From: Promethearchaeota archaeon
GTDB taxonomy: Archaea > Asgardarchaeota > Lokiarchaeia > Sigyniarchaeales > SOKP01
Direction: 5' to 3'
NCBI GenBank assembly: GCA_019058365.1
Contig: JAHPZE010000023.1
Coordinates: 1 to 64,000, forward strand
DNA length: 64,000 nt
The notes under the pieces were generated by a model, which saw only the letters and a program-made list of their open reading frames with translations, was not told where the DNA came from and did no database searches. Shown here piece after piece: positions 28,262-41,809 of this stretch (positions within the stretch are counted from its first letter, which is position 1; each line of letters opens with the position of its first letter). Made by a program: the position numbers and the translations under genes.

Positions 28262-28873
28262 ATGAAAGGTGTAAATATGATTATTGCTATAATAAATTTT
28301 AGTTCCTTTATGGTCGCTTGTTTGATTATGAGTTATCTATATATCCCAAGTATCCAACCTATAAAGAGAACAGAGAAATATGGTGAAAAAGCATGGAGTG
28401 ATTGTAAAAAATTTCGAAGTATAGGGGGGCTTTTTGAATTAATTGCAGTAATTAATTTAATAATTTGGATCTGGTTTCCACTACCTTTAGTAGGCAAATG
28501 GATAATAAGTCCGAATATCTGGGTTGGAATTATTATCGCAATTTGTATTATCATTCCCTGTTGCACTATTTTATATTTAGGGGTAAAGGCTGCTGGCTCT
28601 GAGACTCTTAGTCCATCAAAAGATACTGAAATGTATGGGGGAATTTATAGATATATTCGACATCCTCAATCGTTAGGAGAATTTCCTCTCTTTGTCGCTT
28701 TAAGTTTTGCGATTAATTCATGGTTTTTCGTAATAATTTCATTATTATTTATTATAATTTATATTCCGATTATGATTCACTATGAGGAGAAAGATCTTAT
28801 TAAGCGATTCGGTGATAAATATCGTGAATATCAAAAAAATACGGGAGCATTGTTTCCAAAACTCAGAAAATGA
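28262..28873 (+). CDS. Isoprenylcysteine carboxyl methyltransferase (ICMT/PEMT) family membrane protein
   Basis: GGIYRYIRHPQ, EEKDLIKRFGDKYREYQKNTG..FP. Confidence 0.88.
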   Translation: MKGVNMIIAIINFSSFMVACLIMSYLYIPSIQPIKRTEKYGEKAWSDCKKFRSIGGLFELIAVINLIIWIWFPLPLVGKWIISPNIWVGIIIAICIIIPCCTILYLGVKAAGSETLSPSKDTEMYGGIYRYIRHPQSLGEFPLFVALSFAINSWFFVIISLLFIIIYIPIMIHYEEKDLIKRFGDKYREYQKNTGALFPKLRK

Positions 28874-28921
28874 CTTATTAATATCTAAGATTAAGAATTA
28901 AACATTTTTAATTAATAATTT

Positions 28922-29380
28922 ATGAAAACTACGAATACTAGTAAAGATTCAACATCAACGCGATTTATTAATAAAAATATCAAAGAAAATAGGTATTTAT
29001 TTTTTGCTGGAATTTGTTTTATGATCTATTCTCTCATTGAAATTTCTGATTGTATCTATTTAATCTTTATTCTTATGAATCTTGCGCCAAATCTTTATCT
29101 TAATATTGGAATAATTATCCCTGTAATTCGGCAAATTCTAACATATCAACCTATATTTTTTTTACCGTTCTTCCTAAGTTTTACTCTTCTACGAATTTTA
29201 TCAACAATAGGCATTTTTAAAAATTTTATATGGGGATTTTACATTGGTGTTGTTAGTTTAATTCTTACAATGATAATGACTTTGCTTTTTATGCCATTTG
29301 GATTTTTTGAGTTATTTTTCTGCAGTATTATCTTGGTTTTTCTTATTATTGGTTTTTTTGATAAACAACCGATTATTTGA
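28922..29380 (+). CDS. Hypothetical 4-TM protein (paralog of 31874-32308)
   Basis: IYSLIEISD, FTLLRILSTIG..KN..WGF and PFG.FE shared with the paralog. Confidence 0.75.
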   Translation: MKTTNTSKDSTSTRFINKNIKENRYLFFAGICFMIYSLIEISDCIYLIFILMNLAPNLYLNIGIIIPVIRQILTYQPIFFLPFFLSFTLLRILSTIGIFKNFIWGFYIGVVSLILTMIMTLLFMPFGFFELFFCSIILVFLIIGFFDKQPII

Positions 29381-29443
29381 TTTTCCTCGATTCTAATACG
29401 AAATAAAAATTATGTATTATTAAAATAAAAAATTATTACAATT

Positions 29444-29920
29444 ATGAAGGATTTGATTAAAGAAATAAGGAAGATTATAAAAAAGAATATATGGTTAGTA
29501 TTATCTACTGTTGATAAAGAAGAGCAACCCCATAGTTCTGTAGTAATGTATCAGAGTGATGGATATGATATATATTTTGAAACAGGTGAGTATACGTTAA
29601 AAGCGAGGAATATAAGAGTTAATAATAAGATTTCTGTAACTATACCATTTAGAAAGAGTTTCTTCCATAAAATTATCCCTGCGCCGCCAGCAGAACTTCA
29701 TTTTAAAGCAATAGCCGAATTTACTTCAAAAGATGATGAAAAAACCAGAAAGATTATGGAGAAAGTTTTAAAATACGAGGAAAAGGCTGGAATTGAAGAT
29801 GAAACCGTCTGGATAAAAATAGTACCTTCAGATATCATTTCAACATTTGGTGTTGGAGTTAAACTATTAGACATGAGAAATCCTGAGAAAGCAAGAAACT
29901 TAGTAAAATTAAACTTTTAG
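29444..29920 (+). CDS. Pyridoxamine 5'-phosphate oxidase-like split-barrel (FMN/F420) protein
   Basis: VLSTVDKEEQPHSSVV, KARNIRVNNKISV. Confidence 0.85.
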   Translation: MKDLIKEIRKIIKKNIWLVLSTVDKEEQPHSSVVMYQSDGYDIYFETGEYTLKARNIRVNNKISVTIPFRKSFFHKIIPAPPAELHFKAIAEFTSKDDEKTRKIMEKVLKYEEKAGIEDETVWIKIVPSDIISTFGVGVKLLDMRNPEKARNLVKLNF

Positions 29921-30091
29921 TATCAAAATCTTTTTAAATATGTAAGCGATGATTTAAATGTGGTTTAATCCCTTTATTTAATCTTTTTATATTCTAAAAC
30001 AAAATGAAAATTATATTGATGGTTGAATTACGTAAAGCATATTATTCATGATATTCTTTAATGATTTTTTTTAAGTTGAAACTAATCTGAA

Positions 30092-30775
30092 TTATTCCTT
30101 GTTTAATTCAATTTTTAGCCAAATCGGTAAATTTGCTAATGTAATCTTTTTAACAGAAAAACTATTTTCAAATAAAGAATTATTCAATAAACGTTTTAGT
30201 TCACTTATATCATATGTCATCTTAAGTTGCTTATTTAAGAAGTATGGGACTAATTTTCGATTAAATAATCCTTCCTTAGAAAGATTATTTTTTATTTGTT
30301 CTTTAAGAATTGATTCATCGTATTCTTTATGAGATTCAAATAATATAGCAGTTTTATTCGGCTTTAATATCCGATGGATCTCGTTTAGGCTTTCTACGGG
30401 ATCATTCCATAGATAAAAACTTCCAGTACAAGTTATGAGGTCAAAATAATTACTCTCATAATTAGTACTTACAATATTCCCTTGTTGTAAATTAGCTTTT
30501 ATGTTTTTAAGATTTGTTTTAGCAAGATTAATCATCTTTTCTGAAATATCAAGTCCATATAACTCAATCTTAGGATTCAACTTATTAATTTCTATTAGTA
30601 ACCTTCCATGTCCCGTTCCAATATCTAGAAACGTTCCTTCATTTATCAGAGGTAATAACAATTCTGCAATTTGACTTCTTTGAATCTTCATTGGTTCTAA
30701 TTGCATCATTTTATCATATAATTTTGCGGCAAATTTGGGCAATTTGATAAAACTTCTTTCTCCACGATTACTCAT
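30092..30775 (-). CDS. Class I SAM-dependent methyltransferase
   Basis: LDIGTGHG, GLDISEKM, FDLI, RILKP. Confidence 0.9.
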   Translation of the reverse strand: MSNRGERSFIKLPKFAAKLYDKMMQLEPMKIQRSQIAELLLPLINEGTFLDIGTGHGRLLIEINKLNPKIELYGLDISEKMINLAKTNLKNIKANLQQGNIVSTNYESNYFDLITCTGSFYLWNDPVESLNEIHRILKPNKTAILFESHKEYDESILKEQIKNNLSKEGLFNRKLVPYFLNKQLKMTYDISELKRLLNNSLFENSFSVKKITLANLPIWLKIELNKE

Positions 30776-30854
30776 AAATTAATAATAAATCAATCTTTTA
30801 ATTAAATTGTGATGAATTTTTTAAAAATTAAGAAAATAAAAACTAACTAAACCA

Positions 30855-31733
30855 GTGAAAAGATTGAAGCTAAAAGGAATAGATAAATTTCTAGAAAAAA
30901 TACCAACATTTTCAGGCAAAAAGATAATCATTCTACCGATATATTGTATTTTGGTTTTTATCCTTAGCTTAATAATTCAAATCTATTTTGATATATTCCC
31001 AACCATAATTCCTGTTGAGGGAGTATTGGGATATTTTATTATCGCTTTTCCAGTTTTGGGAGTGACTCTGATGGGGTCTATAGCTATATTTTTAGTATAT
31101 CAAATGTGGTATCATCGAGATCGTTTAAAAGCGAAGTATGGTCAACTATCATATCAAAAAATATTTCTTGCAGGATTCGGAGGTGTTGTCATTATCTTTA
31201 GTATTGTAATAAATAATTTAATTCCTTTTTATCAATGGGATCTTAATTTCTGGTCCCAGTTTCCCTTCTCAATATTTATAACTCCTTTAACATCATATCT
31301 TACTCCAATTTCTCTACTCCTTGGATATATACGTTTCTTTTTAGGAGGTTTTTTTTGCATATTGGGTGTAATAATGATGTTTCGATCCATAGAAACTTTT
31401 GGCATTGATTATATGACCGTTACTTACCTTTATTTCCCCGAAGAGAGTGAATTACAAGATCATAAAATTTACTCAGTGTTACGGCATCCAACATATAGTG
31501 GGATTATATTGCTTTGCCTTGGTGGAATGATTATTCAATTAACGCTCTATTCAATTACATTCTTTGTAATATTATATATTGGGATGTATATTCATATTCA
31601 TTTTGTGGAAGAAAAAGAATTAATTAATCGCTTTGGAGATTCATACAAGGAATATAGAAAAAAAGTCCCTGCATTTTTAGTACATATGAAAGACTGGGGT
31701 TTATTTCTTAAGTTCATTGTGGGAAGAGAATAA
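30855..31733 (+). CDS. ICMT/PEMT family membrane methyltransferase
   Basis: IYSVLRHPTY, EEKELINRFGDSYKEYRKKVP. Confidence 0.85.
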   Translation: MKRLKLKGIDKFLEKIPTFSGKKIIILPIYCILVFILSLIIQIYFDIFPTIIPVEGVLGYFIIAFPVLGVTLMGSIAIFLVYQMWYHRDRLKAKYGQLSYQKIFLAGFGGVVIIFSIVINNLIPFYQWDLNFWSQFPFSIFITPLTSYLTPISLLLGYIRFFLGGFFCILGVIMMFRSIETFGIDYMTVTYLYFPEESELQDHKIYSVLRHPTYSGIILLCLGGMIIQLTLYSITFFVILYIGMYIHIHFVEEKELINRFGDSYKEYRKKVPAFLVHMKDWGLFLKFIVGRE

Positions 31734-31873
31734 ATTGTTGAATTTCAGTATTTTCTATGAATTCTATTAAACATAAAAATTAAATTAGTACGTTATTTCC
31801 AAAATTAAAAATGAAATCATAAATATTAATAATTTAAATTAAAAAAGATCAGCATTGTAGTAAAAATCGATAT

Positions 31874-32308
31874 ATGAAAGCTTCTAAAGATCATCCTAAT
31901 ATTAAGAATAATAGGTTTTTATTTGCAGCATCAATTTCAATGCTAATCTATTCTATTCTTGAAATATTAGATAGCATTGTAATTTTTCTAATCGTATTAA
32001 ATCTGATTCCCAATATTGCATTAATCTTTCAATTTTATGTTCCTCTTATTCAACAGCTTTTAGAAGCTCAACCCTTATCTTTAGCACCCATTTTCTGGGC
32101 ATTCACTTTAATGCGAGTTATTTCTACAATAGGACTTTTAAAGAATTTATTATGGGGTTTTTGGATTAGTTTTGTAAGTTTAATCATTACAATGATACTT
32201 GCAATTGCGTTCTTACCTTTTGGTGCATTTGAACTTCTGGCGTGTAGTGTGATTCTCATTCTATTAATTATTGGATTTTGTGATAATAAACCAATAATAA
32301 CGAATTGA
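31874..32308 (+). CDS. Hypothetical 4-TM protein (paralog of 28922-29380)
   Basis: IYSILEILD, FTLMRVISTIGLLKNLLWGF, PFGAFE. Confidence 0.75.
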   Translation: MKASKDHPNIKNNRFLFAASISMLIYSILEILDSIVIFLIVLNLIPNIALIFQFYVPLIQQLLEAQPLSLAPIFWAFTLMRVISTIGLLKNLLWGFWISFVSLIITMILAIAFLPFGAFELLACSVILILLIIGFCDNKPIITN

Positions 32309-32841
32309 TAAAAATGAAAACTTCTACACCAAACTTTGAGTTTATAGAAAGCGAAATTAGAAAAAAAACATTCGGAGTATTGAGCACGATTGATCAAAAC
32401 GGGTACTCTCATTCAACAGGAATAATATATGGTGTATCATCACCTGAATCAAAATTTTCACTATATATATTAACTGAAAATAGTTATAAAAAGGTAAAAA
32501 ATATAAAAAACAATAATTCAATTTCTTTTGTAATTCCTTTCCCTCACCATCTGCTCAGATTTGTTCCTTCTTCTTGTGTCCAATTTCAAGGGACTGGGAA
32601 AATTATACCCTTTACAAACACAGAAGCTCAACATGCATTCCAAAATAGTTCCAAAATTCTAAAATTGAATCTACAACAAGCAAATCAATTAAATTCTAAA
32701 GAACAAAAATCAGTGTTCATTAAAATAACACCCAATAGCAAATTGTTCTGTTATGGATTAGGGTATAGCTTAATGAAACTTCGTAAAAATGTTGAGATTG
32801 GAAGCTATTCTGTAATTATTCCATCAGAGAGATTAAATTGA
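32305..32841 (+). CDS. Pyridoxamine 5'-phosphate oxidase-like split-barrel protein
   Basis: FGVLSTIDQNGYSHSTG, KVKNIKNNNSISF. Overlaps or abuts the upstream stop codon. Confidence 0.85.
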   Translation: MIKMKTSTPNFEFIESEIRKKTFGVLSTIDQNGYSHSTGIIYGVSSPESKFSLYILTENSYKKVKNIKNNNSISFVIPFPHHLLRFVPSSCVQFQGTGKIIPFTNTEAQHAFQNSSKILKLNLQQANQLNSKEQKSVFIKITPNSKLFCYGLGYSLMKLRKNVEIGSYSVIIPSERLN

Positions 32842-33099: not shown

Positions 33100-34305
33100 A
33101 TGATTGAAACAAACATTTTTTTATTTTTAAGTATTGTATTCTTACTTATTTTCGTTATTGGAAAATTAATAGAAAAGATTCATATCCCATGGATTTTTTC
33201 TTCATTGCTTTTAGGATTTTGTCTTGCTATTTATAATCCTTTTACTGATATAACTAGCTCCTCTACTTTTGATTTCCTCGCTCAGATGGGTATGTATCTT
33301 TTACTTTTCATTATTGGTTTTGAAATAGATCTAAAGGAAATGAAAAAGCAAGGCAAATTTATTATTAAAACAACGACATTGACTATCTTCTTAGCAACAT
33401 TTTTAGGAACTCTTATTATATGTTTTCTTTTTAGCTATAATATTTTTATCTCGATTATTGTAAGCTTATCCTTTGCGACAGTAGGAGAAGAGATTTTAAT
33501 TCCTATATTAGATGAATTTAAATTAACAAATGAGCCTTTAGGACAAACAATAATTGGTGTGGGCACCTTAGATGATATTTTTGAAATTTTCACTTTAATC
33601 TTAGTTATTTTATTTGTAGGGTCAAGTGCTCAAAATGTGGTTGATGTGGTAATAATCCTTGTTGCTCTTTCTGTGTTATTTATTTTAACTATAGGATTCC
33701 TTAAAATTGGGAAAAAAGGGAGTAAATTTAAACATACAGGGGTAGAATCGCTTTTTGTTTTTATAGTATTTGTCTTATTCTTATTTATCGGGGTAGGGCT
33801 TTATGCTGAGGCTGCGCCCCTTGCTGCATTGTTTGCGGGAATTGGTTTAAAAACATTTATTCCACCAGAAAGACTAAAATTTATAGAATCGGAAATTAAA
33901 ACAGTATGTTATGGTCTTTTTGCTCCTTTATTTTTCTTATGGGTTGGCGCATCGATGAATCTGAGTTATATCTTAATGTTTCCAATATTTATCGTTTTAA
34001 TTGTGATAGTCGGGTTCACAGCGAAATTATTGGGAAGTTATTTGGGAGGAAGAAAGACTCTTGGTAAAAAAGATTCTCTTCTATTAGGAATCGGAATATC
34101 CGTAAAATTCAGCACGGGAATTGTCGTTATGACTATTTTATTAAGCAGCGGACTAATCGATTCTGGACTTTATTCTGTTATAATAGCGTCTAGTATTATC
34201 TTTACTTTTGTTATCCCTATAGTATTCGCCAGATTATTAACAAAAAGAAAATCTTCCACTGGCACAGAAAGAACTGAAAACGATGACCCGAATTCTAAAT
34301 TATAA
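33100..34305 (+). CDS. Cation:proton antiporter (CPA2, NapA/KefB-like)
   Basis: LLFIIGFEIDL, GTLDDI, FAPLFFLWVG, AKLLG, about 12 TM helices. Confidence 0.9.
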   Translation: MIETNIFLFLSIVFLLIFVIGKLIEKIHIPWIFSSLLLGFCLAIYNPFTDITSSSTFDFLAQMGMYLLLFIIGFEIDLKEMKKQGKFIIKTTTLTIFLATFLGTLIICFLFSYNIFISIIVSLSFATVGEEILIPILDEFKLTNEPLGQTIIGVGTLDDIFEIFTLILVILFVGSSAQNVVDVVIILVALSVLFILTIGFLKIGKKGSKFKHTGVESLFVFIVFVLFLFIGVGLYAEAAPLAALFAGIGLKTFIPPERLKFIESEIKTVCYGLFAPLFFLWVGASMNLSYILMFPIFIVLIVIVGFTAKLLGSYLGGRKTLGKKDSLLLGIGISVKFSTGIVVMTILLSSGLIDSGLYSVIIASSIIFTFVIPIVFARLLTKRKSSTGTERTENDDPNSKL

Positions 34306-34335: not shown

Positions 34336-34869
34336 TTACGTTTTTTTTAAATGAATAATACATAAGAGATCTACTAATTTTGAAAAATCGATAACTTCTA
34401 GATTATCTTTTTTTGGGTCCCAACCAAACAGCATTTTTGCTGCCTTTCCATAATTCGTTATATACCATTTCATAATTGTAATTTTTTGATTAATATCAGA
34501 AACGAATTCGATTTGAGGTTTAAAACGGTGAAATCCATACATTACTGAAACATCGTTTACATTTGCCCGCAAATTTTTAACCCAAGTCGCATCTTCCCCT
34601 CTTCCGGCAAAAATAGTAATATTTCCTTCGTATCGTCTATATTCTAAAGGAGTTCTTCTCATTTTTCCCGTTTTCCATCCTTTAGTTTTTAAAATTAAAA
34701 AGATTTTTCCAAATCCTAATAAAGGTAGTATTTTTGCTCTGTACAATGGAACCATTAGATATTTGTTTAATTTTTTCCATTTTTTTAAGGTCTTTTTCTT
34801 AGATGCTTCATCTTGATAATTAAAGTTAAACATTACCGATCCAGGGCGTGGTAATTCTTCATTATTCAT
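34336..34869 (-). CDS. Deazaflavin-dependent nitroreductase (Ddn/F420H2-dependent) family protein
   Basis: LILKTKGWKTGKMRRTPL and WVKNLRAN motifs. Confidence 0.82.
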   Translation of the reverse strand: MNNEELPRPGSVMFNFNYQDEASKKKTLKKWKKLNKYLMVPLYRAKILPLLGFGKIFLILKTKGWKTGKMRRTPLEYRRYEGNITIFAGRGEDATWVKNLRANVNDVSVMYGFHRFKPQIEFVSDINQKITIMKWYITNYGKAAKMLFGWDPKKDNLEVIDFSKLVDLLCIIHLKKT

Positions 34870-34954
34870 TTTAATCTCACTTGATTTAGATATTACTATT
34901 TATGAATTTTAAACGATTTTTTTCTTTTAAATTTACTTTAACCTATAGATCATT

Positions 34955-36046
34955 TTAATTTATTTCAAGGCATTGAGCCAAACATCTTTTAACACAAGCA
35001 TTACAATTTATACATTTTTCAGGATTTCTTAAATCAACTTTTTTATCATTTTCATCAAATAAATATAAGTTTCTAGGACATACTTCAATACATACTTTGC
35101 ATCCAATACATTTATCTCTCTTGATAATAATTTGACCATACGGTTGTAATTTATATTCACCAAACAAAAATTTCATTTTCTTATCACCTTTCTTCCAAGT
35201 CTTTGCACCTAATTCACTTTTATAAATTGGAGTTAATCCGTGAAAATCTTCTGCCATAATCAATGTAATTAAAAGAGAAAAGATTATATTCCAAATTAGA
35301 TAAAGAAGATTAAATATGATAAATAGATTAAATAGAACTATTATAAGAAGAATTATCCCCTCATAAATCCATACTTTTGTTTTTCCTGTTTCCGTAGGAA
35401 TGCTTGGCAAAATCAGCATTGTACCGTAAATTATAATCACAAAAATTAAAATAGTATCTAAATATAGTAAAAGATTTAAAATTGGTAAAAAAAAAGCAGA
35501 AATCCAATAGATAGTTGAGACTAAAACACTTAAAATAAAGAAATATAATGTAGCCATTTCTATTCTGTGAGAGAAAGGAAATCTTACTATTCTCTGTGCC
35601 TCTGATTTACAGAATTTTTGTTCTATAAAAGAAGGGATATCTTTAGCATATACAGGCCCAAATATTATGTTCCATCCGGTCTTTTTTTTAATGATGATGG
35701 GATCTATTCCAGGAGCACTTAATTGAGGTAAAATTAAGGTTCTATGAGACACAAGATCATCAATTCCACTGGTTTTTAAAATTGACAAGACAGAATCTGT
35801 TCGAAAATCATCTCCACACGCTCCACACCATACATTTATTCCTTTAGAAGGAGCAATTAATAAATAACAATCGAGATTTTTTATTGCCTTTAAAACTCGT
35901 TTTACAGTTAAAATGAAATTACATGTAAGTAAAACGGGACTTTCACTTGTAGGATTTCCGATTTTTATAAGGGTTGGTTCTATTGGGAAACCAGTCCATC
36001 TAAAGAAATAACTTATACCTAATTTTATTGAATTTTTTACGCTCAT
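34955..36046 (-). CDS. HgcAB-like fusion: CdhD/AcsC-type corrinoid domain, TM region and 2x[4Fe-4S] ferredoxin
   Basis: GNPTSESPVLLTCNFILT, GINVWCGACG (HgcA cap-helix variant), HRTLILPQLSAPG, FGPVYAKDI, about 4 TM helices, DFHGLTP, CIGCKVCIEVCP and CINCNACVKRC. Confidence 0.88.
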   Translation of the reverse strand: MSVKNSIKLGISYFFRWTGFPIEPTLIKIGNPTSESPVLLTCNFILTVKRVLKAIKNLDCYLLIAPSKGINVWCGACGDDFRTDSVLSILKTSGIDDLVSHRTLILPQLSAPGIDPIIIKKKTGWNIIFGPVYAKDIPSFIEQKFCKSEAQRIVRFPFSHRIEMATLYFFILSVLVSTIYWISAFFLPILNLLLYLDTILIFVIIIYGTMLILPSIPTETGKTKVWIYEGIILLIIVLFNLFIIFNLLYLIWNIIFSLLITLIMAEDFHGLTPIYKSELGAKTWKKGDKKMKFLFGEYKLQPYGQIIIKRDKCIGCKVCIEVCPRNLYLFDENDKKVDLRNPEKCINCNACVKRCLAQCLEIN

Positions 36047-36075
36047 TTTTCTCTTACCGGATATTATTTGTATTT

Positions 36076-36735
36076 TTAGGTCATTTTTTTCAACCTAAAT
36101 AACTTTAAAGTATCTAATAAATAATACTTTTCTTCAATTAACGAAAAGTTATGATTTTCAAGTCTTTTTTCTATATTTTTTAAATATTTAGTAGTCAATT
36201 GTGACTTAAAATATGTAATAATTACTATAGGAATTCTAACAAAAAAATACACAATTTTCTTCCAAATTTTCTTAGGTTTAACCTCATCAACTAAAATAAA
36301 TTCTCCATCATCCTTTAATATTTTATTGATTTGTTTCAAGCAAAAATCTTGCTCCTCTTGATAAAATTCGCTAAATGATAAAATCGCTGTTATTTTATCA
36401 AAAGATTTATCAGAAAAGTGTTCATCTAATTCAATAACCGGCATTTTAATAATATGAATATTCTCGGTTAATTCTTCCTGTTTAATATTTTTTCTTGCTA
36501 CTTCAAGCATTTTTTCCGAATAGTCAATACCAGTAACAATTGCTCCTTTATTAGCACATAGAATGGCGAATGTTCCCGTACCCATGCCAATATCTAAAAC
36601 ATGCTCATTTTTATGCACTAAATTGTCTGATATATATATTTTAATTTTTGGAATGCGTCCCAATGTTAAATAATTTATTCCTTTATCGTATTTTTCTGCT
36701 TTCTTTTCCAATGCTTTCATATAAACATACGACAT
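36076..36735 (-). CDS. Class I SAM methyltransferase associated with a corrinoid protein (CpaM-like)
   Basis: MSYVYMK..E..KYDKGI..L..G N-terminus, LDIGMGTG, GIDYS, LSFSE, ends 29 nt upstream of the HgcAB-like gene. Confidence 0.8.
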   Translation of the reverse strand: MSYVYMKALEKKAEKYDKGINYLTLGRIPKIKIYISDNLVHKNEHVLDIGMGTGTFAILCANKGAIVTGIDYSEKMLEVARKNIKQEELTENIHIIKMPVIELDEHFSDKSFDKITAILSFSEFYQEEQDFCLKQINKILKDDGEFILVDEVKPKKIWKKIVYFFVRIPIVIITYFKSQLTTKYLKNIEKRLENHNFSLIEEKYYLLDTLKLFRLKKMT

Positions 36736-36806
36736 TTATTAAAATACCGCTTTTGGAACTAAGGATTTATTGATAATTCAATCTTTAACATAATCTTCTT
36801 TTAATT

Positions 36807-37655
36807 TTATTCATGTGGTAGCACGATAATTAACGTCATTATAAGGATGACACCACATAAAAATACCAATGTTTGAATAATTGATCTCTTTAAGTTTTTT
36901 TCTTTTAACAGTTCAGGCATGAGTTCTGTGCTTGCTAAGTATAAAAACCCACCACCAGAAAACGCTAAAAAGAAGAAATTAAATAAATTTACTTGAGCTG
37001 ACACGAAAAAAGCTAATAACCCTCCAAGTAATGCCACCAAGGCACTGGCAAAGTTAAATAAAAGAGCTCTCTTTTTTGTAAATCCTCCATATAAAAGGAT
37101 TCCGAAATCTCCAATTTCCTGTGGTAATTCATGGAATAAAACCGCAAGAGTGACAATAATACCATTCTCAATTCCACTTAAGAATGAGACCATTATAATA
37201 ATACCATCTAAAAAATTGTGTAAACCATCACCAATTAAATTTAAAAGTGCGAAATTTTTAATCTTTTTACCTTTATCTACAATATTATCTATACCTTCTG
37301 TAAGAGTATCGTAACAGACTAATTGGTCATCCTTTTCATGAGCATGACCATGGAACCAATAAATAAAACGTTCAAGTACAAAGAATATTACAAACCCTAG
37401 CATTACTATTGCGAATAGAAGACTTTCAACAATACCTGCCCCTCCTGCATTTAATTCTTCAAGATGGTGGAGGGATTCAGGAATTAGATCAAATAGTGCT
37501 GTAGCTAAAATTGTACCTGTCGCAAATGCCACAAGAATAAACAATAACTTATCTAAAGTCTTTTCTTTAAGGGAAATCATAAATACACCAATTAAACTCA
37601 AAAGACTGATGGCAAAAATCATAATAAAACCTAATAATGCTTCCACCTTAATCAA
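36807..37655 (-). CDS. ZIP family metal transporter
   Basis: AFATG, HGHAHE loop, GDGLHNFLDG, HELPQEIGDFG. Confidence 0.93.
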   Translation of the reverse strand: MIKVEALLGFIMIFAISLLSLIGVFMISLKEKTLDKLLFILVAFATGTILATALFDLIPESLHHLEELNAGGAGIVESLLFAIVMLGFVIFFVLERFIYWFHGHAHEKDDQLVCYDTLTEGIDNIVDKGKKIKNFALLNLIGDGLHNFLDGIIIMVSFLSGIENGIIVTLAVLFHELPQEIGDFGILLYGGFTKKRALLFNFASALVALLGGLLAFFVSAQVNLFNFFFLAFSGGGFLYLASTELMPELLKEKNLKRSIIQTLVFLCGVILIMTLIIVLPHE

Positions 37656-41086: not shown

Positions 41087-41809
41087 ATGATGAAAAGTTT
41101 TAATAATCCTGAGGAAAAAACTAGATTAAATCGTTCTGGAATCAAAGGAATGTTAATATGGTACTTAATGGTTATTCTTTCTTTAATAACCCTTTTATTA
41201 TCTTCAGGTAAGTTTAATTGGCTAAATTCTTGGATATATTTTATAATTTCAATATTTTACTTAACAATTCTAGATCTGATAGCCATTAAAGAAAAGCCTG
41301 AAATGCTAAATGAAAGAGGGAAAGGTTTAAGGAAAGACACAAAGTTATTTGACAAAATTTTTATTGTTCTTTGGATGCCTATGGTTCTTATCAGCATGGT
41401 AATTATTGCTTGGGATGTTGTTCGATTTCATTGGACATCTTTGCCATTTTGGACTCTATTTATAGGAATTATTTTAACAATACCTGGTTTTATTCTTGGT
41501 CTTACAACTATGCTTTCTAATCCATATTTTGAATTAACAGTTCGAATTCAAATAGACAGAAATCATAAGGTAATTTCTTCTGGACCATATAAAATCATCC
41601 GGCATCCTGGATATGCCGCAGAAATATTAAATTTATTAGCAGCTCCATTAATATTAAATTCTTTATGGGGATTTGTTCCAATTGGTGTAATTATATTTGT
41701 TTTTATCATCCGTACAGCACTAGAAGATCGTACTCTAAGGAACGAATTGCCAGGTTACAAAGACTATGCTAAAAGAACTCGTTACCGCTTGTTTCCTTAT
41801 ATTTGGTAA
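41087..41809 (+). CDS. ICMT (Ste14-like) family membrane methyltransferase
   Basis: VRIQIDRNHKVISSGPYKIIRHPGY, RTALEDRTL..ELPGYKDY..RYRLFPYIW. Confidence 0.9.
   Translation: MMKSFNNPEEKTRLNRSGIKGMLIWYLMVILSLITLLLSSGKFNWLNSWIYFIISIFYLTILDLIAIKEKPEMLNERGKGLRKDTKLFDKIFIVLWMPMVLISMVIIAWDVVRFHWTSLPFWTLFIGIILTIPGFILGLTTMLSNPYFELTVRIQIDRNHKVISSGPYKIIRHPGYAAEILNLLAAPLILNSLWGFVPIGVIIFVFIIRTALEDRTLRNELPGYKDYAKRTRYRLFPYIW

What the first reader, a model, noticed from the sequence alone, without database searches (positions are those of the whole stretch)
34336..37655. ZIP transporter - SAM methyltransferase - variant HgcAB fusion - Ddn-like reductase: candidate corrinoid metal(loid)-methylation module
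Seen: four co-oriented genes with 71, 29 and 85 nt gaps. The 363-aa protein has a corrinoid domain, about 4 TM helices and two CxxCxxCxxxC clusters. Its cap helix reads GINVWCGACG rather than N(V/I)WCA(A/G)GK, so it carries a second Cys three residues after the presumed Co-ligating Cys. The second ferredoxin motif is CINCNAC rather than C(M/I)ECGA, and there is no terminal Cys-Cys pair. Known: HgcA/HgcB methylate Hg, whereas fused HgcAB-like proteins have not been shown to and their function is open. Inference: the adjacent SAM methyltransferase loads methyl groups onto the corrinoid, the extra Cys may substitute for the HgcB tail as a metal or thiol site, and the His-loop ZIP transporter supplies the substrate metal or cobalt. 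This could be an undescribed methylation/detoxification system related to the origin of Hg methylation.
Basis: partly seen in the sequence, partly recalled or inferred. Interest (0 to 1): 0.85.

Follow-up and report, generated by a model that had tools for sequence, protein, structure and literature searches.

The report
Known CpaM plus HgcAB-like pair
This Asgard archaeon carries an ordinary copy of an already catalogued but biochemically unsolved gene pair: a SAM methyltransferase (CpaM) and a membrane-anchored B12/iron-sulfur relative of the mercury-methylating enzyme. The zinc-type transporter next to it is a chance neighbour, and the F420-type reductase is at most a lineage-specific accessory.

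Summary
The four co-oriented genes, their 71/29/85-nt gaps and all quoted motifs are real. The core is a two-gene cassette that NCBIfam already models. The 363-aa protein is an 'HgcAB-like fusion protein' (NF043039, 376 bits vs cut-off 285) and fails the true-HgcA model (164 vs 275). The 219-aa protein is 'corrinoid protein-associated methyltransferase CpaM' (NF043040, 255 vs 180).

Across 71 fusion-type loci from archaea and bacteria, cpaM lies directly upstream in 56 and is fused to the corrinoid protein in 9. None of 9 canonical hgcA|hgcB loci has it.

The WCGAC cap motif is not a one-off: about 113 of 120 homologues have the second Cys, but it is confined to one clade.

It is adjacent in only 2 of 14 close relatives and in none of 71 distant loci. 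The Ddn-like gene is nearby in 6 of 14 relatives and in one distant Chloroflexi locus, and many genomes have one gene without the other.

Recurrent context is TetR regulators and ABC-2 exporters, not metal-resistance genes.

The scan has met this pair before in other Asgard genomes, and two earlier follow-ups gave the same verdict. Function remains open. The best guess is SAM to Co(I)-corrinoid to an unknown, non-mercury acceptor.

The parts
36076..36735 (-). cpaM: class-I SAM methyltransferase, 'corrinoid protein-associated methyltransferase' (219 aa). Core part.
   Evidence: NF043040 scores 255 bits against a cut-off of 180. Conserved across 79 homologues: motif I LDxGxGTG, D71, S122-E123, G144 and E151; no conserved Cys or His. 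It lies directly upstream of the fusion gene in 56 of 71 loci and is fused to it in 9.
34955..36046 (-). HgcAB-like fusion protein (363 aa): corrinoid domain, 4 TM helices and a 2x[4Fe-4S] ferredoxin domain. Core part.
   Evidence: NF043039 scores 376 bits against 285. HgcA NF040863 scores 164, below 275. HgcB NF040864 scores 45, below 99. AF2 model pLDDT 88. Foldseek best match is the HgcAB model 9a0b_A, then CFeSP.
35597..35995 (-). Corrinoid-binding domain (about aa 18-150)
   Evidence: PF03599 covers residues 23-139. PDB CFeSP large subunit 2h9a matches residues 20-145 at E 4e-11. Foldseek gives rmsd about 3 A over about 132 residues.
35813..35836 (-). Cap motif N71-V-W-C74-G-A-C77-G. C74 is the presumed Co-thiolate ligand and C77 is the extra Cys.
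   Evidence: C74 is invariant in every group. C77 is Cys in 18 of 18 Asgard-clade rows, 5 of 7 triple fusions and 0 of 8 canonical HgcA. About 113 of 120 homologues have the second Cys.
35237..35575 (-). Four transmembrane helices (aa 158-270)
   Evidence: Hydropathy, with K+R counts of 3/0/2/0/8 in successive loops. AF2 helices at 158-186, 192-215, 221-244 and 247-270.
34958..35137 (-). HgcB-like ferredoxin domain (aa 304-363) with two CxxCxxCxxxC motifs plus the extra conserved C359; no C-terminal Cys-Cys.
   Evidence: Fer4 family hits cover residues 306-358. C313, C316, C319, C323, C345, C348, C351 and C355 are invariant, and C359 is at least 90% conserved in 79 sequences.
34336..34869 (-). 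Ddn-like (FDOR-A, split-barrel, probably F420H2-dependent) protein. Possible lineage-specific accessory, not core.
   Evidence: PF04075 scores 36 against a cut-off of 22. It is the only PF04075 gene in the genome. F420 genes CofD and CofH are present. It lies near the cassette in 6 of 14 relatives, in 3 arrangements. Among 61 relatives the gene and the fusion occur together in 11 genomes, the fusion alone in 5 and Ddn alone in 11.
36807..37655 (-). ZIP-family metal transporter with a His-rich loop (HGHAH). A neighbour only, not part of the system.
   Evidence: PF02535 at 1e-49; ZupT equivalog 79, below 252. Adjacent in only 2 of 14 relatives and never adjacent in the 71 distant loci, where it appears only in L015, 4.6 kb away. 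There is a second ZIP gene in the genome.

Best explanation
The real unit is a two-gene cassette, cpaM plus an HgcAB-like fusion gene. It is a standard member of a widespread archaeal and bacterial family that is paralogous to the mercury methylase HgcAB.

Shown here:
- Family membership of both proteins.
- The architecture: a cytoplasmic corrinoid domain with an invariant Cys, four TM helices and a cytoplasmic 2x[4Fe-4S] domain.
- A tight, often translationally coupled or covalent link to CpaM.

Inferred mechanism:
1. The ferredoxin domain reduces Co(II) to Co(I).
2. CpaM binds SAM and loads its methyl group onto Co(I), with Cys74 as the axial thiolate.
3. The methyl-Co(III) then methylates an unidentified acceptor at the membrane face. 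This acceptor is probably not Hg(II). It is more likely a small organic or lipophilic compound than a metal.

In the Asgard clade the extra Cys77 (CxxC) and Cys359 may form part of the acceptor or redox site. ZIP is unrelated. The Ddn-like gene is at most an optional, lineage-specific helper.
For: - Both proteins pass the curated NCBIfam cut-offs, and a canonical HgcA control separates cleanly (L080 scores 469 on HgcA).
- cpaM is directly upstream on the same strand in 56 of 71 fusion-type loci. In 53 the gap is 100 nt or less, and the most common arrangement is a 4-nt overlap.
- A CpaM domain is fused into one polypeptide in 6 triple fusions plus L102, and in CpaM-HgcA fusions (L071, L083, L084). 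Both halves score over the cut-offs in L037 and L102.
- cpaM is adjacent or fused in 14 of 14 close relatives.
- None of 9 canonical hgcA|hgcB loci has a cpaM.
- SAM methylates Co(I) in canonical HgcAB (Zheng 2024, PMC11588087), so SAM-to-corrinoid chemistry has a precedent in this superfamily.
- Both soluble domains are cytoplasmic.
- Fused HgcAB hosts P. furiosus and M. methylutens made no methylmercury (PMC4646819; PMC5893877).
- Recurrent context is TetR upstream in 12 loci and ABC-2 exporters in 5-9 loci.
Against: - No biochemistry exists for any family member, so the direction of methyl flow and the acceptor are inferred.
- Canonical HgcAB uses SAM without any CpaM, so CpaM may not be needed for Co methylation and could do something else.
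- CpaM's nearest named relatives are UbiE/MenG, PmtA and similar enzymes acting on lipophilic substrates, which would fit direct substrate methylation.
- Two loci with adequate flanks (L040, L054) lack cpaM.
- No model of the CpaM-corrinoid interface could be inspected with these tools.
Confidence: 0.6

Rival explanations
1. One reading: a four-gene metal(loid) methylation/detoxification module. ZIP imports the substrate metal or cobalt, CpaM loads the corrinoid, the CxxC Cys binds the metal, and Ddn supplies reducing power.
For: - The four genes are co-oriented and close together.
- This exact order recurs in the two nearest relatives, L091 and L098.
- A CxxC next to the Co ligand is a plausible soft-metal site and is conserved in the clade.
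- The T6 run that could act as a terminator comes only after the Ddn gene.
Against: - ZIP is not near the cassette in 10 of 14 relatives and 70 of 71 distant loci, and it is relocated to the other side in 2.
- ZIP is one of two copies in the genome.
- Ddn and the fusion gene occur without each other in 16 of 27 genomes that have either one.
- No ArsR/MerR, Acr3 or CPC-type ATPase recurs nearby. TetR and ABC-2 recur instead.
- CpaM lacks the conserved Cys of ArsM-type enzymes.
- Most family members lack the second Cys.
Confidence: 0.07
2. It is a genuine mercury methylase, a fused form of HgcAB.
For: - It shares the architecture and the invariant Co-ligating Cys.
- Its best structural match is the HgcAB model.
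- Podar 2015 notes that a negative result in P. furiosus cells does not prove the enzyme is inactive.
Against: - HgcA model scores 164, below 275. HgcB model scores 45, below 99.
- The cap motif lacks the canonical AAGK.
- There is no C-terminal Cys pair.
- It sits in a separate clade from canonical HgcA.
- Two cultured carriers of fused HgcAB make no MeHg.
Confidence: 0.05
3. The corrinoid protein does reductive Co(I) chemistry, for example dehalogenation or another reduction of a hydrophobic xenobiotic. CpaM either only repairs oxidised cofactor by reductive methylation, as the MetH activation domain does, or methylates the product directly. TetR senses the compound and ABC-2 exports it. Ddn-type reductases assist where present.
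For: - TetR directly upstream and ABC-2 exporters recur. L083 reads TetR, CpaM-HgcA, HgcB, Ddn (8-nt overlap), then ABC-2.
- CpaM's nearest named relatives act on lipophilic substrates, and it has a moderately hydrophobic segment at about residues 157-177.
- A 2026 preprint reports CCl4 dechlorination by heterologous HgcAB (10.64898/2026.04.26.720869).
- Canonical HgcAB needs no CpaM to react with SAM.
Against: - The preprint concerns canonical HgcAB only and is not peer reviewed.
- TetR and ABC-2 occur in a minority of loci, mostly bacterial.
- A permanent covalent fusion of a SAM enzyme seems excessive for occasional repair.
- No dehalogenase-type partners were seen.
Confidence: 0.2

Closest known systems
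HgcAB-like fusion protein (NCBIfam NF043039), the 'fused HgcAB' of Podar 2015, Gilmour 2018 and Lin 2023
   Same: Full-length match above the cut-off. One polypeptide carries the corrinoid domain, TM helices and a 2x[4Fe-4S] domain. It falls in the Asgard clade already described. Near-identical proteins carry this name in NCBI.
   Different: Nothing essential differs. The Asgard/Hadarchaeota subclade adds Cys77 (CxxC) and Cys359, which most bacterial members lack.
CpaM, corrinoid protein-associated methyltransferase (NCBIfam NF043040, 'hypothetical equivalog')
   Same: Scores 255 bits against 180, has the class-I SAM fold and sits directly upstream of the corrinoid protein.
   Different: None. 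The family itself has no demonstrated activity, and I found no paper in the held library that mentions it.
HgcA/HgcB mercury methylase
   Same: Homologous corrinoid and TM domains with an invariant Co-ligating Cys. A ferredoxin partner is present. SAM-to-Co(I) chemistry is demonstrated for HgcAB.
   Different: - It fails both equivalog cut-offs.
- The cap motif is WCGACG, not WCA(A/G)GK.
- It has 4 TM helices, with the ferredoxin fused.
- There is no C-terminal Cys pair.
- It has a dedicated CpaM partner, which canonical loci lack (0 of 9).
- It belongs to a separate clade.
CFeSP large subunit (AcsC/CdhE) of the Wood-Ljungdahl pathway
   Same: The same corrinoid-binding fold (27-31% identity, rmsd about 3 A over about 132 residues).
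   Different: CFeSP is soluble and heterodimeric, is methylated from methyl-H4folate by MeTr, and has no Cys ligand or TM domain. PRK04165 scores 85, below 306.
SAM-to-cobalamin methyl loading in the MetH activation domain, TsrM and class B radical SAM enzymes
   Same: Analogy for the inferred step in which SAM methylates Co(I) (from established knowledge, and discussed in PMC11588087).
   Different: Those SAM-binding modules have unrelated folds. CpaM is a Rossmann-type class-I methyltransferase.
Ddn / FDOR-A F420H2-dependent reductases (PF04075)
   Same: The Pfam match is above the gathering score, there is an N-terminal hydrophobic stretch, and the genome makes F420.
   Different: The match is partial (residues 57-109) and falls below the TIGR00026 cut-off. 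Substrate and cofactor use are untested.

Membership tests
HgcAB-like fusion protein (NF043039) | Full-length score above the curated cut-off (285 bits) | tested here: met
   376.2 bits over residues 11-360; 375.7 bits on the genome search.
HgcAB-like fusion protein (NF043039) | Single polypeptide with a corrinoid domain, TM helices and a 2x[4Fe-4S] ferredoxin | tested here: met
   Pfam CdhD plus Fer4; four TM helices; eight invariant cluster Cys.
HgcAB-like fusion protein (NF043039) | Binds a cobamide and Fe-S clusters | not testable with these tools
   Needs purified protein. CobS was not found in the genome, so the cofactor would have to be salvaged.
CpaM (NF043040) | Score above the curated cut-off (180 bits), with an intact SAM motif I | tested here: met
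   255 bits. LDIGMGTG, D71 and E123 are conserved across 79 homologues.
CpaM (NF043040) | Genomic association with an HgcA-type corrinoid protein | tested here: met
   29-nt gap here. Adjacent in 56 and fused in 9 of 71 loci. Adjacent or fused in 14 of 14 relatives.
HgcA (NF040863), mercury methylation corrinoid protein | Score above the curated cut-off (275 bits) | tested here: not met
   164.3 bits. The canonical control L080 scores 468.6.
HgcA (NF040863) | Cap-helix motif N(V/I)WCA(A/G)GK | tested here: not met
   It reads NVWCGACGD. All 9 canonical loci read WCAAGKG.
HgcA/HgcB | Separate HgcB ferredoxin with a C-terminal vicinal Cys pair | tested here: not met
   The ferredoxin is fused and ends ...RCLAQCLEIN. 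HgcB model scores 45, below 99.
HgcA/HgcB | Methylates Hg(II) | not testable with these tools
   Fused homologues in P. furiosus and M. methylutens gave no MeHg above controls.
CFeSP large subunit (PRK04165) | Score above the cut-off (306 bits) | tested here: not met
   85.2 bits, covering the corrinoid domain only.
Ddn / deazaflavin-dependent nitroreductase family | PF04075 above gathering score; TIGR00026 above cut-off | tested here: inconclusive
   PF04075 scores 36.2, above 22, but the match is partial. TIGR00026 scores 41.2, below 46.35. F420 biosynthesis genes are present.
ZIP transporters (PF02535) / ZupT | Pfam score above cut-off; ZupT equivalog above cut-off | tested here: met
   PF02535 scores 170, above 35.1, so ZIP superfamily membership is met. 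ZupT equivalog scores 79, below 252, so it is not a ZupT orthologue.

The most novel reading that the evidence does not exclude
A dedicated CpaM-type SAM methyltransferase may be the ancestral partner of the whole HgcA superfamily. Every non-canonical lineage has CpaM adjacent or fused: the fused HgcAB-like proteins, the triple fusions, the Chloroflexi CpaM-HgcA fusions, and an Asgard CpaM-HgcA | HgcB(CC-tail) clade that is sister to true HgcA. Only the canonical mercury methylase lacks it. Mercury methylation would then be a derived side branch that internalised SAM use. The Asgard CxxC/Cys359 subclade would mark a still-unknown thiol- or soft-metal-directed methyl acceptor.
Probability: 0.15. 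Interest if true: 0.75.

Novelty: already known. Interest (0 to 1): 0.33.

Why it matters
The native function and origin of the HgcAB superfamily are long-standing open questions in mercury biogeochemistry. This locus adds no new kind of system. The comparison does make one point testable. Every relative of HgcA except the canonical methylase keeps a dedicated SAM methyltransferase, often fused to it. This fits the 2024 discovery that SAM is the methyl donor of HgcAB. Reconstituting a CpaM/HgcAB-like pair, or a natural triple fusion, could reveal what these enzymes methylated before or besides mercury. In practice, metagenomic surveys should not count these Asgard genes as mercury methylators.

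Tried and rejected
I obtained synteny in near relatives through the genome search and the fetch from genomes instead.
- A literature search for 'CpaM', 'corrinoid protein-associated methyltransferase' and 'HgcAB-like' found nothing relevant.
- Haft & Gwadz 2023 (PMC9879109), which may discuss these models, is not held.
- P-type ATPases near four loci were considered as a metal clue. I rejected this because they lack the CPC/CPH motif of heavy-metal pumps.
- The in-frame TGA in the G027 orthologue was considered as selenocysteine. I rejected this because it replaces the conserved Gly of CIGC, not a Cys, so it is probably a nonsense change or an assembly error.
- Intergenic regions were read for promoter or terminator signals. 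At 28% GC, TATA-like strings are uninformative. Only a T6 run after the Ddn gene stands out. The bacterial promoter scanner was not used because it does not cover archaeal promoters.
- The AF2 model gives no coordinates here. The proximity of C74, C77 and C359 and the docking of CpaM could not be examined, and no multimer modelling is available.
- Two paper-reading runs failed on term syntax.
Full report
**Observation**

The window holds four minus-strand ORFs exactly as described: ZIP at 36807-37655, a methyltransferase at 36076-36735, a 363-aa protein at 34955-36046 and a 177-aa protein at 34336-34869. The gaps are 71, 29 and 85 nt.

- Pfam gives ZIP (1e-49), class-I SAM methyltransferase domains, CdhD corrinoid plus 4Fe-4S dicluster domains, and a partial Ddn-type match of 36 bits against a cut-off of 22.
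- The quoted motifs (GINVWCGACG, CIGCKVCIEVC, CINCNACVKRC, no terminal CC) are all in the translation.
- Hydropathy with a clean positive-inside pattern indicates four TM helices. An AlphaFold2 model (pLDDT 88, pTM 0.82) agrees, so both soluble domains face the cytoplasm.
- Foldseek's best hits are the published HgcAB integrative model 9a0b_A, then CFeSP corrinoid domains, and ferredoxins/HgcB for the C-terminus.
- In the cofactor-free model the WCGACG stretch is a lower-confidence loop, so 'cap helix' holds by homology only.

**What it is**

NCBIfam already has curated models for both central genes.

| Protein | Model | Score | Cut-off |
|---|---|---|---|
| 363 aa | NF043039 HgcAB-like fusion protein | 376 | 285 |
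| 363 aa | NF040863 true HgcA | 164 | 275 |
| 363 aa | NF040864 HgcB | 45 | 99 |
| 219 aa | NF043040 CpaM | 255 | 180 |

- A canonical HgcA used as a control scores 469 on the HgcA model, so the models discriminate.
- The database holds over 1000 relatives. The nearest are Promethearchaeota, Odin-, Thor- and Heimdall-archaeal proteins that NCBI already names 'HgcAB-like fusion protein'.
- The fused family has been known since Podar 2015. The Asgard fused clade is in Lin 2023.
- Two cultured carriers of fused genes, P. furiosus and M. methylutens, made no methylmercury.
- The scan itself has met this pair in several other Asgard genomes. Two earlier follow-ups reached the same verdict.

**Which neighbours belong**

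I fetched 80 loci from species-representative genomes and scored their flanks. Nine are canonical hgcA|hgcB loci with the WCAAGKG cap, and none of them has a cpaM. The other 71 are fusion-type loci:

- 56 have cpaM directly upstream on the same strand. In 53 the gap is 100 nt or less, and the most common arrangement is a 4-nt overlap.
- 6 encode CpaM-HgcA-HgcB as one polypeptide.
- 3 encode a CpaM-HgcA fusion followed by a separate HgcB.
- 4 are cut by contig ends.
- Only 2 (L040, L054) lack cpaM despite adequate flanks.

Both halves of the triple fusions pass the NCBIfam cut-offs.

In 14 orthologous loci from close relatives:

| Neighbour | Result in 14 relatives |
|---|---|
| cpaM | adjacent in 13, fused in 1 |
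| ZIP | adjacent in the 2 nearest relatives, moved to the other side in 2, not seen in 10 |
| Ddn-like | nearby in 6, in three different arrangements |

- In the 71 distant loci ZIP occurs once (L015), 4.6 kb away behind an ABC-2 exporter. The genome has a second ZIP gene.
- The Ddn-like gene is the only PF04075 member in the genome, and F420 biosynthesis genes are present.
- Among 61 relatives, 11 genomes have both the fusion and a Ddn gene (within about 5 kb in 8 of them), 5 have only the fusion and 11 have only Ddn.
- A Ddn-family gene also overlaps hgcB by 8 nt in a distant Anaerolineales locus (L083).
- I read Ddn as an optional accessory, possibly functional, and not part of the core.

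**Other context**

Unbiased clustering of neighbours found:

- a TetR regulator directly upstream of cpaM in 12 loci;
- ABC-2 exporter genes in 5-9 loci, including the 88%-identical Asgard orthologue L015;
- PEMT/ICMT-like membrane methyltransferases in 4 loci.

Nearby P-type ATPases lack the CPC motif. No ArsR/MerR, Acr3 or mer genes recur. CpaM has no conserved Cys or His. This context speaks against a metal(loid) substrate and mildly for a small organic or lipophilic one.

**The second cysteine**

About 113 of 120 close homologues have Cys three residues after the Co-ligating Cys. On a tree of the corrinoid+TM part:

- The window protein sits in an all-Asgard WCGAC clade (SH-aLRT 98-99).
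- The second Cys occurs only in one larger clade: Asgard, a class-level triple fusion (L102), Hadarchaeota and the bacterial triple fusions.
- The other fusion-type clades and canonical HgcA have G, A or T at that position.

It is therefore a conserved clade trait. It is neither a one-off nor a family-wide requirement.

**Evolutionary side result**

This genome, and about 40 of 61 relatives, also encode a second system outside the window. It consists of a CpaM-like-HgcA fusion of 548-587 aa with a WC[AG]AR cap, followed by a small ferredoxin that ends in a vicinal Cys pair like HgcB.

- These copies form a clade (SH-aLRT 99) that is sister to canonical HgcA with moderate support (83).
- Every lineage except canonical HgcA is therefore CpaM-linked.
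- With the single, long CFeSP outgroup this looks like loss of CpaM on the stem of the true methylase. The root is not secure.
- The trees are quick searches with SH-aLRT support only.

**Mechanism**

Shown: family membership, topology, and the CpaM link by adjacency and by fusion.

Inferred:
1. The ferredoxin domain reduces cobalt.
2. CpaM delivers the SAM methyl to Co(I). Zheng 2024 showed SAM methylating Co(I) in canonical HgcAB with Co-thiolate ligation.
3. Methyl-Co(III) methylates an unknown acceptor.

The main caveat is that canonical HgcAB needs no CpaM. CpaM could instead methylate a substrate directly or only repair the cofactor. A 2026 preprint reports reductive dechlorination by HgcAB, which keeps a reductive function in play.

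**Verdict**

The methyltransferase link and the conserved CxxC hold. ZIP does not hold, Ddn is optional, and the system is not new.
- This is an ordinary member of a catalogued but biochemically unsolved family.

Noticed in passing
Own genome contig C26 (L002:745-2430 and 2479-2784); relatives L103-L112: A second, unlinked system. It is a 548-587-aa CpaM-like-HgcA fusion (cap WC[AG]AR) followed by a roughly 100-aa ferredoxin ending in a vicinal Cys pair like HgcB. It is present in about 40 of 61 relatives and forms a clade sister to canonical HgcA (SH-aLRT 83). It scores below the cut-offs of HgcA, HgcAB-like, HgcB and CpaM.
   Followed up: partly
window 28262-32841 and 41087-41809; L090, L091, L093, L095, L096, L098: A set of ICMT/PEMT-like membrane methyltransferases, 4-TM proteins, PNPOx-like split-barrel proteins and a class-I methyltransferase travels with the cpaM/fusion cassette in this genus, but in shuffled order. 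PEMT-like genes also flank the cassette in Hadarchaeota, Desulfurococcales and Atribacterota loci (L014, L031, L047).
   Followed up: partly
L083:5585-11886 (Anaerolineales) and 11 other bacterial or archaeal loci: TetR lies directly upstream of cpaM or the CpaM-HgcA fusion. L083 reads TetR, CpaM-HgcA, HgcB, Ddn (8-nt overlap), then an ABC-2 ATPase and permease. This looks like a regulated detoxification/export operon.
   Followed up: partly
L102:2115-4058 (G058, same class as the window's genome): An Asgard 647-aa triple fusion CpaM-HgcA-HgcB (CpaM 249 bits, HgcAB-like 359 bits) with cap WCAAC. It is independent of the bacterial triple-fusion clade.
   Followed up: partly
L098:3072-4163 (G027 orthologue): An in-frame TGA replaces the conserved Gly of the first cluster motif (CIGC becomes CI*C). 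This is most likely a nonsense mutation or an assembly error, not selenocysteine.
   Followed up: yes
whole genome G000: Cobalamin synthase CobS (TIGR00317) was not detected in a genome rated 100% complete, although it encodes several corrinoid proteins (CFeSP on C34, two HgcA-type proteins, and a corrinoid operon in this window). The organism probably depends on cobamide salvage.
   Followed up: no
window 33100-34305 (+): A Na+/H+ exchanger family gene (PF00999) lies convergent to the Ddn-like gene. In relative L096 its orthologue sits between the fusion gene and Ddn, which shows local rearrangement.
   Followed up: no
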